Shown here: piece by piece, positions 6,158 through 34,143 of the stretch
How the letters are laid out: each line of letters begins with the position of its first letter
Position numbering within the stretch: the first letter of the stretch is position 1
Assembly: GCA_964016885.1 (NCBI GenBank)
Contig: OZ024757.1
Coordinates: forward strand, 38,068,001-38,132,000
Length of the DNA: 64,000 bases
Reading direction: 5' to 3'
Source of the DNA: Eledone cirrhosa
Taxonomy: Eukaryota
The notes under the pieces: generated by a model
What the model was told of the DNA's origin: nothing
Seen by the model: the letters and a program-made list of their open reading frames with translations, nothing else
Database searches by the model: none
Position numbers and translations under genes: made by a program

Positions 6158-6290
6158 TAACGGAGGAAGTGTGGTAAGGAACTAGGTGGACCATAACGCA
6201 CCAGAGTACTCGATACATTGGGTAGTAGCGTGGGTTATAGGAAAAGAGTCAAGAACTCGACGGCCGTCGGGGTTTTGACTCCTTTCCTAT
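6158..6290 (+). mobile_element. short TA-embedded dispersed repeat, family C1
   Basis: AACGGAGGAAGTGTGGTAAGGAAC..GGACCATAACGCACCAGAGTACTC..GCCGTCGGGGT..TTCCTA; homologous to 18229, 28519 and 33695(-); (TA)n on both sides. Confidence 0.85.
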
Positions 6291-6345
6291 ATATATATAT
6301 ATATATATATATATAAGATCAAAAGATGGTTAAAAGAGTTCCATG

Positions 6346-6416
6346 TATTTTATTATGCGCATTTCAAAAACAAATATCATCATGGGATGATATTTGTGTT
6401 CTCATCAGATAAAATA
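6346..6416 (-). ncRNA. type I hammerhead ribozyme motif (family E, copy 1; element about 6317-6460)
   Basis: minus strand reads TATTTTAT CTGATGA GAACACAAATATCATC-CCAT-GATGATATTTGTTTTT GAAA TGCGCA TA ATAAAATA: 8-bp stem I, complete core, long stem II, palindromic stem III. Confidence 0.85.
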
Positions 6417-6502
6417 GGGAGAGGGAGACATGATATGAAGCTTAAAAAACACTTGCGAACAGTGAAGTGTTAAATATCTCTCTATATATAGTGAAGTGTT
6501 AA

Positions 6503-12100: not shown

Positions 12101-12283
12101 TGTATAATAGCTGTTTAATAACATTATAATAACTGTATAACAACATTTACATGGAGTGTACCATATATATGTCAAGTCGTTTTAGGATGAAGTCAAAACC
12201 TCAAAAGACGTCCGCATTGTATACATGTATATATATACATACTTGCTCACAAGTGTTTTTTTAAGCTTCATATCATGTCTCCC

Positions 12284-12354
12284 TATTTTATCTGATGAGA
12301 ACGCAAATATCGTCCCAGGATGATATTTGTTTTTGAAATGCGCATAATAAAATA
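12284..12354 (+). ncRNA. type I hammerhead ribozyme motif (family E, copy 2; element about 12248-12375)
   Basis: TATTTTAT CTGATGA(12292-12298) GAACGCAAATATCGTC-CCAG-GATGATATTTGTTTTT GAAA(12335-12338) TGCGCA TA ATAAAATA; predicted cut after A12346. Confidence 0.85.
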
Positions 12355-12494
12355 CATGGAACTTTTTTAACCATCATTTAATTTCTTCTTATATACATAT
12401 ATATATACAACGGAATATATAATTTGTTGGTAATTCAAGCAATATATATATTTATAACAGATTCGACAAGATTTTCTGGAGTATAATATCATTG

Positions 12495-12518
<24 letters not shown>

Positions 12519-12527
<9 letters not shown>

Positions 12528-12704
12528 GAAACACACAGATACATGCGGACACACACATATATACATGAATGCATCCGCACCCAACTGTGAGTTAAGGGTG
12601 CCAACTTCACCGGTGAAGTTGGCACCCTTAACTCACAGTTGGGTGCGGATGCATTCATGTATATATGTGTGTGTCCGCATGTATCTGTGTGTTTCTAAAT
12701 ATAT
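12519..12704. repeat. 186-bp perfect palindrome centred on CACC|GGTG (12611/12612)
   Basis: arms are reverse complements by eye; the ORF track shows mirrored MCVSACICVFLNI ORFs on both strands. Confidence 0.95.
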
Positions 12705-15520: not shown

Positions 15521-16722
15521 TTATAAACTGAGATACTTTATTAGATTTCTGTTCTGGTAATGTGTTCTCTAGTTCCATACATATTGAATCTAATTTACTA
15601 TATTAGAAATTAAGTAAAAGAAGTGTCTATACAGAAAGGAATTTTCAAACTCTGAATCGTAACAGCATAGAGCACAGAACGATAGAGATGCTTAAACAAA
15701 GCATGATAGTATATAGAAAACATGCAGCTATCCTCTTTATTAAGAAAATAGGGCAGTGGACCTCAGAAACACTTAGAGACTATTAAGGAATGATGCTTTT
15801 ACGAACAAGTCCTACAAGTATTATAATAAAAGATCATACTGAAGCACAACCATGTTTAATACACACAAACACACACACACACACTCAAGGTCAAATATAT
15901 CTGTGCATGCCTACACACACACATATATAGAGATATAGATAGAGAGAGAGAGATATGAATATATATATATGTATATAGACACGAACATGCCCTATATACA
16001 TATATATTTTCAAATATCAGTGTGCGTGTCTGTGTATATGTAGTGCGCACATTTATGTACACATGTAGCTAGCTGTTGAGAGAGAAGCAGAGAGTTACGG
16101 ATACGTGCAAGGTTAAAATGTTCCTTAAATACGAACAGTTCTCGGAACCAAATCAAATTTATACGGATGTAATAACACGCATTCAACTTGAAAAATAGAA
16201 ATGACAATTTAGTGTAGAAAACAAAACTTGTAAAATGTGTTAGCACTGTAATTGTAAAACCAATGGAGGAAATGATAATTTGAAATAAACACATGAATTT
16301 CTAAAACAAATCTCCGAAACAAGGTAACTAACGAAACGACAAGACGTAAATTATTCACTGGTTAAAATAAAATAAAATGATGCTAGAGTTGAATTGAAGT
16401 GGGGTTATTAAATAACAAGGACAACAACAACAGAAAGGCTTATAAGAATACGAGACATGTTTTGTGCAATGAATGATGTGTGATAAAGAAATTGATTGGT
16501 GAAAATGTAAGATGGTGGATCGGAGTATCTCTAAGGGAATGTATTTTTGTCATCACGCTTTGTTATAATATTCCACGAACTACAAAATCCATAATAATTG
16601 TGTACATAATTCTCCGTTGTAGAGATCATACAGCTACAGACATGTATATATATATATATATATATATATAATAAAATAAAATAAAACAAGGACGAGTGGT
16701 TACTCCTTCATTACGTGTATTG

Positions 16723-16812
16723 GTGATGACGCGCGTTTCGCCACTAATCAGCTGAAGGTTCGATCTGTATCGATATAGCCCGACTCTGTAATCCACGGCT
16801 CGTCAGACCCCT
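16723..16812 (-). ncRNA. hammerhead-like motif with a long stem II
   Basis: minus strand reads GGGGT CTGACGA GCC..GGC GAAA CGCGCG TC ATCAC; complete core, palindromic stem III ACGCGCGT, imperfect stem I. Confidence 0.7.
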
Positions 16813-16891
16813 TATAATGGGAAAGAAAAATAATTATATCTAGCGCTGAGTACTTATGTGTATGTATATATGCATACACGTATGTGTGTAG

Positions 16892-17339: not shown

Positions 17340-17489
17340 TAGAAGTGGTTACACAACAGGTAGTTCACCATGATGTCCATTACGAGCTGAGGATCCGCTA
17401 AGGGAAAACTATTGTTCTCGGTATGGTGAACTAACTGTTGTTTAACCACTTCTATATATATTGGCAACATGACCCTCACAAAGTATGAC
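17340..17489 (+). mobile_element. family D element end: inverted repeat of about 32 bp (17340-17454) enclosing a hammerhead-like motif (17383-17420), then terminus TTGGCAACATGACCCTCACAAAGTATGACA
   Basis: terminus is the reverse complement of TGTTATGCTTTGGGAGGGTCATGTTGCCAA at 33883 and 58737; motif CGAG CTGAGGA TCCGCTAAGG GAAAAC TATT GTT CTCG. Confidence 0.65.

Positions 17490-32420: not shown

Positions 32421-32500
<80 letters not shown>
31920..32500. repeat. (TA)n/(CA)n compound microsatellite
   Basis: direct reading. Confidence 0.95.
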
Positions 32501-32505
<5 letters not shown>

Positions 32506-32508
32506 CAG

Positions 32509-32559
32509 GGCTTCCTGATGATTTCTCCCGAATGAAACAGTTCTAGTCCCGTAGAAGCC
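32509..32559 (+). ncRNA. type I hammerhead motif (family C2)
   Basis: GGCTTC CTGATGA TTTCTCCCGAAT GAA ACAG-TTCTAGTC-CCGT A GAAGCC; 6-bp stem I; other copies have CTGT, giving a perfect 4-bp stem III; predicted cut after GUA at 32553. Confidence 0.75.
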
Positions 32560-33119
32560 TTTATATATATATATATATCTTTAAAGACGCAAAGGTGTAA
32601 TGGTGACACATTGGTCCAGCAAACTAAATCTGTGATTTCGTGTCCCATATACATCAATATTCATCCTTTTTCCCATTTAGAGGTTTTTTTAATCCCAACT
32701 AACAGACTAATAGTATGCAGTGAAATACGGCGTAAGCACATGTTACTACATATTTTTCAAATTCAGTAGCTATATCTAAACAAAGCTGGCTTCGTGTCTT
32801 CATATTTATATACATATACGTAAAGATAAACTTCTGTGTGTATATATATTTATATACACGCAAACGAATACATCTATGTATGAACCTGTATGTATATACG
32901 CACGCAGATACACTCACACACATATATACACATAGATCCACCGAGTAACAAACACAGTTAAATATTCAGACAGAGAGTGTTTATATCATATGGAGAAACT
33001 TCTAGAGTTTAATTCTTTTAACATTTAAATGGAAGTAAACATAACTAGAACGAGAAACACCAGGCGTAACATTTCGACGGTTTCTCAGGATTTTTTTAAA
33101 CATCGCCTGTATTTTTTAG

Positions 33120-33964: not shown

Positions 33965-34143
33965 AAGTTATTCCGGGGTCAATCGACGTAGCCACAGAAA
34001 GTAAGGTACCCAATACATAGCAGAGTATAGATGTTTTAATATAGAAAAGCTTCTACAGGACCTGAACTATTTTATTCGTGAGAAATCATCAGGAATCTAC
34101 CTTGTGACTTCTCACGAATGAAACAGTTCTAGTCCTATAGTAG

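What the first reader, a model, noticed from the sequence alone, without database searches (positions are those of the whole stretch)
12284..12354. Intact-looking hammerhead present twice in opposite orientation (12284-12354 + and 6346-6416 -)
Both copies keep all core nucleotides, an 8-bp stem I, a stem II of about 16 bp and the ATGCGCAT stem III. Differences between the two motifs fall in the loop or are A/G changes that keep pairing through G-U. The first stem II pair is G-U rather than the usual G-C. This is the best candidate for an active ribozyme, with an AUA site cut after 12346. The homologous element is only about 130-140 bp and has no ORF.
Basis: partly seen in the sequence, partly recalled or inferred. 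Interest (0 to 1): 0.75.

Follow-up and report, generated by a model that had tools for sequence, protein, structure and literature searches.

The report
Hammerhead stubs of a Penelope-like retrotransposon
The two motifs are leftover end-pieces of an abundant jumping gene, each carrying a predicted self-cutting RNA that likely works only in pairs, and the ends of sampled genomic copies suggest that the element's RNA was mostly copied into DNA without having been cut.

Summary
They are not a retrozyme pair. Each is a 150-165-bp 5'-truncated stub, sitting in TA repeats, of a 3.9-kb Hydra-clade Penelope-like retrotransposon (reverse transcriptase plus C-terminal GIY-YIG; at least 14,238 3' ends in the genome). 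Hammerheads in this clade are published, with an octopus family among them. The palindromic stem III is predicted to form only in a dimer. Two points go further. First, a pyrimidine·pyrimidine mismatch at stem II pair 4 is kept in 7 of 7 sequence clusters while the flanking pairs covary, and 93,446 of 103,288 genome matches carry it. The scan noted this before on other DNA of this genome. Second, copy ends map a sharp 5' boundary 124 nt upstream of the cut site (likely the transcription start) and two 3' ends (+36 to +59; +130 to +136). Only 1 of 78 copies begins at the cut site, so templates were mostly uncut or re-ligated. Cleavage is untested and no RNA data were available.

The parts
12242..12395 (+). 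Stub A: 3' end (pseudo-LTR piece) of a Hydra-clade Penelope-like element, from 105 nt before the cut site to the first 3' end at the TA repeat
   Evidence: 98% over 154 nt to the 3' end of the near-full-length copy L036
12284..12354 (+). Type I hammerhead, copy A
   Evidence: sequence, folds
12292..12298 (+). Core CUGAUGA
12299..12334 (+). Stem II: G-U first pair, 3 bp, C·U mismatch (12302 x 12331), 12 bp, 4-nt loop
12338..12345 (+). Self-complementary stem III strand; predicted 8-bp duplex between two hammerheads
   Evidence: self-duplex -10.5 kcal/mol; cofold -43.1 vs -32.2 for two monomers
12346..12347 (+). Predicted cut site (after A17 of AUA)
   Evidence: position in the hammerhead consensus; not tested
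12273..12359 (+). Possible 5-bp extension of stem I (12273-12277 with 12355-12359) beyond a 6-nt bulge
   Evidence: 94% of cells paired in 7 family members, no change on both sides; weak
12391..12407 (+). TA-rich target DNA at the 3' end of stub A
6309..6475 (-). Stub B: independent stub of a sister subfamily, from about 120 nt before the cut site (at or near the 5' boundary) to the TA repeat
6346..6416 (-). Type I hammerhead, copy B; mismatch 6398 x 6369; palindrome 6362-6355; predicted cut between 6354 and 6353
6288..6315 (.). (TA)14 target repeat at the 3' end of stub B

Best explanation
The two motifs are hammerhead copies in short, independent 3'-end stubs of a Hydra-clade Penelope-like retrotransposon, likely made when the element's reverse transcriptase copied the uncut 5' end of its RNA into TA repeats, and each is predicted to cut only when paired with a second hammerhead. 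Shown: the parent unit is hammerhead - tail - 800-codon RT/GIY-YIG frame - 3' UTR - hammerhead, 3,864 nt from cut site to cut site; copies end at two sites past the cut site and pile up at a 5' boundary 124 nt before it. Inferred: the boundary is a transcription start in the pseudo-LTR; the two 3' ends are internal priming sites; reverse transcription runs through an uncut hammerhead; the palindromic stem III keeps a lone motif nearly off and lets two motifs (the two ends of a tandem RNA, or two RNAs) form a double hammerhead, probably helped by the element's protein; the invariant C·Y mismatch at stem II pair 4 is likely a contact point for that step. The two window stubs are likely passengers without a role.
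For: ORF about 1 kb upstream on the same strand in longer copies. Hammerhead-ORF-hammerhead tandems L053 and L055. Hydra motifs in the 800-aa protein: DKT, YRDD, CxCX5C, CxxC..E, CxH, and by-eye agreement with Hydra-1_Obim. 14,238 exact 31-mers of the 3' end, control 0. 3' ends in 83 sampled copies: 45 at +36 to +59, 35 at +130 to +136, 3 run on into the next unit. 5' ends in the 78 of 83 with the end inside the fetched DNA: 25 at -128 to -119 (14 exactly at -124), 1 within 5 nt of the cut. Genome-wide: 10,051 matches from -121, 8,829 from -124, 3,768 from -127, a 12% drop and then a 57% drop. Monomer stem III probability 0.001; the cofold minimum-energy structure is the double hammerhead, 10.9 and 11.5 kcal/mol below two monomers. 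Published parallels: promoter inside the pseudo-LTR (PMC2377424, passages); two internal priming sites, uncut RNA as main substrate and a protein-assisted hammerhead in the anole element (PMC11167929, parts 1-2 of 4); dimer-only, low activity (PMC4209133, parts 1-2 of 4).
Against: No cleavage or RNA-end data. An axolotl hammerhead with a 2-bp stem III and tetraloop cut 22% in 1 h as a monomer (PMC7229834, passage), so low monomer activity is possible. With flanks included, stem I is mostly not formed (inner-pair probability 0.001 for stub A and 0.03 for L053), and the L053 and L057 motifs fold no better than shuffles (z -0.44, +0.77). Within the family no pair changes on both sides; covariation appears only between families. 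29 of 53 copies that reach -120 continue past -124, and 5 long copies carry upstream pseudo-LTR to -368 or further; a circular or read-through template fits these as well. Cut RNA may simply integrate poorly, which would hide cleavage. The sample is the first 83 of 14,238 matches, all on the first 39 Mb of one contig; paired arms are not independent, and ends were mapped on one subfamily's reference. The Hydra RWK motif reads RWT in L053.
Confidence: 0.72

Rival explanations
1. Double-hammerhead cleavage releases a 3,864-nt unit RNA that is ligated to a circle, and the circle is the main template of long and more-than-unit copies; only the stubs come from linear uncut RNA.
For: No ends at the cut site is also what re-ligation gives (1 of 78; 0 of 15 long copies that reach the start codon or beyond). 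L053, L055, L059, L063 and L066 run upstream well past -124. Proposed in PMC4209133.
Against: A circle has no end at -124, where 24 of 53 copies stop. Read-through transcripts explain the longer copies as well.
Confidence: 0.25
2. The fold is kept as a protein-binding or folding element and no longer cuts to any useful degree.
For: Templates look uncut. Hammerhead mutants did not affect insertion in vitro in the anole element (PMC11167929). The usual G10.1-C11.1 pair is A-U in 55 of 59 and G-U in 4 of 59 sampled copies.
Against: Core, U-H cut site and a self-complementary stem III strand are all kept in 7 of 7 clusters (the pattern required core and cut site), next to ORFs only 39-58% alike; a palindrome suits dimer cleavage. 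U·U and G-U at this pair occur in published Hydra motifs.
Confidence: 0.13
3. The stubs are a non-autonomous, self-propagating SINE-like or retrozyme-like element that starts at -124 and borrows the Hydra protein.
For: A stub from -124 to +134 would hold the presumed promoter, the hammerhead and both priming sites; about half of the copies that reach -124 stop there.
Against: Stubs and longer copies share subfamily marks in like proportions (stop/continue 12/14, 9/14, 3/1), so no stub-only lineage is seen in 53 copies; no 150-450-nt tandem among 100 listed places.
Confidence: 0.08
4. Each copy is an efficient monomeric ribozyme that cuts host transcripts passing through it.
For: Core intact, stems I and II form in the isolated 71-mer; axolotl precedent for weak monomer activity (PMC7229834).
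Against: Closing the 2-bp stem III costs 3.5 kcal/mol, probability 0.001; flanks compete with stem I; copy ends show almost no cut templates.
Confidence: 0.07

Closest known systems
Hydra-clade Penelope-like elements and their hammerheads, incl. Hydra-1_Obim (Craig et al. 2021, PMC8557442; section 11, passages, and parts of supplementary files S1, S2 and S4 read)
   Same: RT then C-terminal GIY-YIG, DKT, CxCX5C linker, CxxC and CxH around E and N, (TA)n targets, sense-strand type I hammerhead near the 3' end, self-complementary short stem III, variable first pair of stem II, tandem and inverted copies.
   Different: A different family: the unit is 3.9 kb (listed Hydra elements are 1.1-3.0 kb), stem II is 16 pairs with a C·U mismatch at pair 4 (3-7 listed pairs, none broken, in the 26 Hydra rows of File S2), the stem III strand is 8 nt, the tail is about 85-90 nt (30-40 bp in the paper), and RWK reads RWT.
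Minimal hammerheads of metazoan PLEs (Cervera and de la Pena 2014, PMC4209133; parts 1-2 of 4 read, supplements not seen)
   Same: Location in pseudo-LTRs, palindromic helix III, predicted dimer activity, mostly single truncated copies, opposite-strand pairs 100-700 bp apart.
   Different: Helix II there is 6-8 bp, G10.1-C11.1 is conserved, and a nucleotide is inserted after position 9; here helix II is longer, has an internal Y·Y mismatch, no inserted nucleotide and no fixed G-C.
PAc (Poseidon of Anolis carolinensis; Frangieh et al. 2024, PMC11167929; parts 1-2 of 4 read)
   Same: Two internal priming sites that define a tail, AT-rich targets, uncut RNA as main template, no read ends at the cut site.
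   Different: Poseidon clade; there the hammerhead overlaps the start codon and priming lies inside the ORF, here the cut site is 212 nt before the first Met and both 3' ends are upstream of it.
Metazoan non-LTR retrozymes (Cervera and de la Pena 2020, PMC7229834; passages read)
   Same: Type I hammerhead, weak helix III, up to about 100,000 motifs per genome.
   Different: Retrozymes are ORF-less tandem units of 150-450 nt; this unit is 3,864 nt with an ORF and shows no short tandems.

Membership tests
Type I hammerhead ribozyme | Core CUGANGA / GAAA / UH with three helices, open at helix I | tested here: met
   helix III only 2 bp in a monomer
Type I hammerhead ribozyme | Score above an Rfam hammerhead model threshold | tested here: not met
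   no hammerhead family listed at E up to 10 on either region; long stem II and AT-rich stems are the likely reason (inference)
Type I hammerhead ribozyme | Covariation in helices | tested here: met
   between 7 clusters, stem II pairs 2, 3, 5 and 6 switch among A-U, G-C, U-A and C-G; within the family only one-sided changes
Type I hammerhead ribozyme | Self-cleavage 3' of H17 | not testable with these tools
   no RNA holder listed
Hydra-clade PLE | Single ORF, RT followed by C-terminal GIY-YIG | tested here: met
   800 aa in L053; YRDD at 357, YFG..LY at 693; atlas hits with GIY-YIG and RVT_1 families, score 0.96-0.98; Pfam and PDB sequence scans gave nothing significant
Hydra-clade PLE | DKT motif | tested here: met
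   residue 123
Hydra-clade PLE | RWK motif | tested here: inconclusive
   RWT in L053, RWK in the related family L174; Hydra-1_Crog in the paper has RWR
Hydra-clade PLE | CxCX5C linker; CxxC and CxH around E and N; no CCHH motif | tested here: met
   residues 659, 759 and 787; one Cys only inside the GIY-YIG core, read by eye
Hydra-clade PLE | Insertion into (TA)n | tested here: met
   both window stubs; nearly all of the 35 tail-end copies are followed by TA repeats
Hydra-clade PLE | RT groups with Hydra in a tree | not tested
   published Hydra proteins were compared by eye only
PLE (general) | Pseudo-LTRs, inverted 5'-truncated copies, tail at one end | tested here: met
   L053 and L055; 30 of 100 listed places are in divergent pairs within 500 bp; tail end at +130 to +136 in 35 of 83
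Naiad-clade PLE | N-terminal GIY-YIG, no canonical hammerhead | tested here: not met
   nuclease is C-terminal
Non-LTR retrozyme | Head-to-tail units of 150-450 nt | tested here: not met
   0 of 100 listed places; unit 3,864 nt
Non-LTR retrozyme | No coding capacity in the unit | tested here: not met
Non-LTR retrozyme | Abundant small circular RNA | not testable with these tools

The most novel reading that the evidence does not exclude
About 90,000 hammerheads of a radiation of Hydra-clade retrotransposons form a distinct structural variant, a long stem II broken by an invariant C·Y mismatch at pair 4 with a palindromic 8-nt stem III, that is a protein-gated switch: off while the RNA is reverse-transcribed, as the copy ends record (start at -124, two priming sites, almost no cut templates), and on only when the element's protein binds the mismatch and pairs two motifs.
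Probability: 0.3. Interest if true: 0.62.

Novelty: new variant of a known kind. Interest (0 to 1): 0.38.

Why it matters
What hammerheads do in Penelope-like elements is stated as open in PMC8557442. This family offers young copies with open frames, a full hammerhead-ORF-hammerhead unit, and thousands of copy ends that map the RNA start, the two priming sites and the near absence of cut templates. That is a genome-scale counterpart to the single in vitro result in the anole element, and it gives a defined residue pair (the C·Y mismatch) to mutate. The two window copies themselves are ordinary debris. If lone copies did cut, tens of thousands of them would be a burden on host transcripts; the predicted dimer requirement would remove it.

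Tried and rejected
Rfam scans: the whole window gave microsatellite-driven microRNA hits and the two regions gave no hammerhead family. Pfam and PDB sequence searches of the ORF gave nothing significant. Sequencing runs: no RNA holder listed. Contigs of 4 runs of unknown kind were laid; they show the family and the same two 3' ends but say nothing on expression or cleavage. G-U at the first stem II pair as CpG decay of G-C: rejected, since the youngest subfamily with open frames has A-U there. The two window copies as arms of one insertion: rejected. Two family motifs in one 64-kb window is unremarkable: Poisson P 0.04 with 14,238 copies and 0.14 with a rough 31,000 (the latter extrapolates 33 of the 100 rows). 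Stub-only lineage: not seen. A genome-wide count across the cut site was not obtained, so that test rests on the 83-copy sample. One search used a misregistered structure and is replaced. Lunse et al. 2017 on dimeric PLE hammerheads is not held and is known here only through a review passage (PMC6765202); one search fetched an unrelated paper. Searches for a description of the pair-4 mismatch listed none, but supplementary figures of PMC4209133 and the Lunse paper were not seen and may show it.

Full report
Observation. Both motifs are present as described. Copy A has stem I at 12284-12291/12347-12354, core CUGAUGA at 12292-12298, stem II at 12299-12334, GAAA at 12335-12338, a self-complementary 8-mer at 12338-12345 and an AUA triplet ending at 12346. 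Copy B is the same on the minus strand (6416-6346). They differ at three positions, two G/A changes that keep pairing and one in loop II. The isolated 71-mers fold better than shuffles (z -2.8 and -3.2). Rfam lists no hammerhead family on these regions. The window is microsatellite-rich, repeat-derived DNA of a 3.0-Gb genome; that it is an octopus-type genome is my inference from these features and from the elements found.

What the element is. A DNA search of the own genome gave 1,787 first-look candidates, 40 scored. An exact 31-mer just past the cut site occurs 14,238 times, control 0. Longer copies continue upstream into an A/T-rich 3' UTR of about 1 kb and then an ORF on the same strand. 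A protein search gave 150 scored matches, several with 821-codon open frames. In L053 and L055 the order is hammerhead - ORF - hammerhead, 3,864 nt from cut site to cut site in L053. The 800-aa protein has RWT, DKT, YRDD, a CxCX5C linker, a GIY-YIG-type YFG..LY, CxxC..E and CxH. These are the marks that Craig et al. 2021 give for the Hydra clade of Penelope-like elements (PMC8557442, section 11), except that RWK reads RWT. It agrees by eye with Hydra-1_Obim but is a different family with a different hammerhead. The window holds no ORF or UTR of it: only 12242-12395 and 6309-6475 match. The two stubs are 87.6% alike, carry different subfamily marks and each ends in TA repeats, so they are independent insertions.

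The hammerhead variant. Of 64 sampled copies that reach the motif, 60 keep the core. The first stem II pair is A-U in the youngest subfamily (55 of 59), G-U in the window's subfamilies and G-C in L062; published Hydra motifs show G-C, G-U and U·U there, so the G-U is not a defect of these copies. A loose pattern (core, 18-48 nt, GAAA, a 6-nt stem III insert, UH) has 103,288 matches against 788 for the control; requiring pyrimidines on both sides of pair 4 keeps 93,446, or 90.5%. Copies are not independent, so I clustered the 108 distinct motifs in the fetched loci: 7 clusters, all 108 with Y·Y at pair 4 (C·C in 6 cluster representatives, C·U in this family), while neighbouring pairs switch among A-U, G-C, U-A and C-G, and the stem III strand is self-complementary in all 7. 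Thirty of the loci came from the pyrimidine-constrained search, but every cluster also has members from other loci. Related motifs lie downstream of Hydra-type ORFs only 39-58% identical to the L053 protein in 9 loci. Within the family no pair changes on both sides. My paper searches listed no description of it; the Lunse 2017 paper and the supplements of PMC4209133 were not seen.

How it likely works. As a monomer stem III is 2 bp plus a tetraloop: it costs 3.5 kcal/mol and has probability 0.001, whereas cofolding two copies gives the double hammerhead with an 8-bp stem III at -43.1 against -32.2 kcal/mol (copy A) and -41.1 against -29.6 (copy B). With flanks, stem I is largely lost in the prediction. 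This fits the published dimer-only, low activity of PLE hammerheads (PMC4209133) and the protein-assisted cleavage of the anole element (PMC11167929); an axolotl motif with a like stem III still cut 22% as a monomer (PMC7229834). The two window copies cannot pair this way in one transcript, since one would be antisense; they would anneal instead (duplex -197.5 kcal/mol).

Copy ends. I took the first 83 of the 14,238 matches (first 39 Mb of contig C1). 3' ends: 45 at +36 to +59 from the cut site, 35 at +130 to +136, 3 run on into the next unit. These match the two internal priming sites that define the PLE tail (PMC11167929). 5' ends, for the 78 not cut by the fetched stretch: 25 at -128 to -119, 14 exactly at -124, and 1 within 5 nt of the cut site (ends of diverged copies, such as -129 and -1104, are artefacts of the single reference). 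Of 53 copies that reach -120, 24 stop at the boundary and 29 continue. Genome-wide the count falls 12% from -121 to -124 and 57% from -124 to -127 (10,051; 8,829; 3,768). The boundary is an A after a pyrimidine run, and several short arms of a second family begin at a like site at about -138 (read by eye). I read it as the transcription start of a promoter in the pseudo-LTR, as shown for Drosophila Penelope (PMC2377424); a stall or processing site is not excluded. None of 15 long copies that reach the start codon or beyond begins at the upstream cut site. So the stubs, the two in the window among them (-105 and about -120 to the TA repeat), were likely copied from linear RNA that was uncut at the hammerhead. 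For long copies a re-ligated circle remains possible, and cut RNA may integrate poorly, so this does not show that the ribozyme is dead.

Verdict. A real hammerhead of a known kind of host element: Hydra-clade PLE, not a retrozyme; identity of the element about 0.95, dimer-gated activity about 0.65. The long stem II with an invariant C·Y mismatch makes it a variant that I did not find in print, already noted elsewhere in this scan; the mapped RNA start and the near absence of cut templates add a testable picture of the ribozyme's place in the cycle. The window copies are passive. Interest 0.38.

Noticed in passing
window 12523-12704: A perfect 182-bp palindrome (100% match to its own reverse complement) between TA runs; perhaps a two-armed insertion or a MITE.
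   Followed up: no
window 16720-16815 (-): Another hammerhead-like motif: CUGACGA, a stem II region of about 60 nt, GAAA, self-complementary stem III strand, GUC site; stem I imperfect, fold no better than shuffles.
   Followed up: partly
window 58870-58925 (-), 17375-17430 (+), 32500-32560 (+), 34040-34110 (-): Decayed copies of three other hammerhead families that also occur, better kept, in fetched loci.
   Followed up: partly
window 6160-6285 (-): Next to stub B, a different abundant repeat with a G+C-rich hairpin, similar to L036:4850-5040; not identified.
   Followed up: no
window 57060-57647 (+): 196-codon frame with an RPD..WD motif that recalls the restriction-like endonuclease of non-LTR retrotransposons (recalled; Pfam gave no hit); the opposite strand is open too.
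   Followed up: partly
L051:2115 and L057:4956: Two of 15 long copies begin at +135 and +133, the place of the second 3' end, as if one arm stopped where another had primed on the same RNA.
   Followed up: no
L053:1937-2042, run X4: Contigs of one run of unknown kind show more T>C (7) and A>G (3) variant places than the other three runs; may be A-to-I editing of fold-back arms or other subfamilies.
   Followed up: no
L031:1998-3319 (-): A second, unrelated RT and GIY-YIG element of canonical PLE type (with Cys and His motifs) lies 2 kb from a Hydra copy.
   Followed up: no
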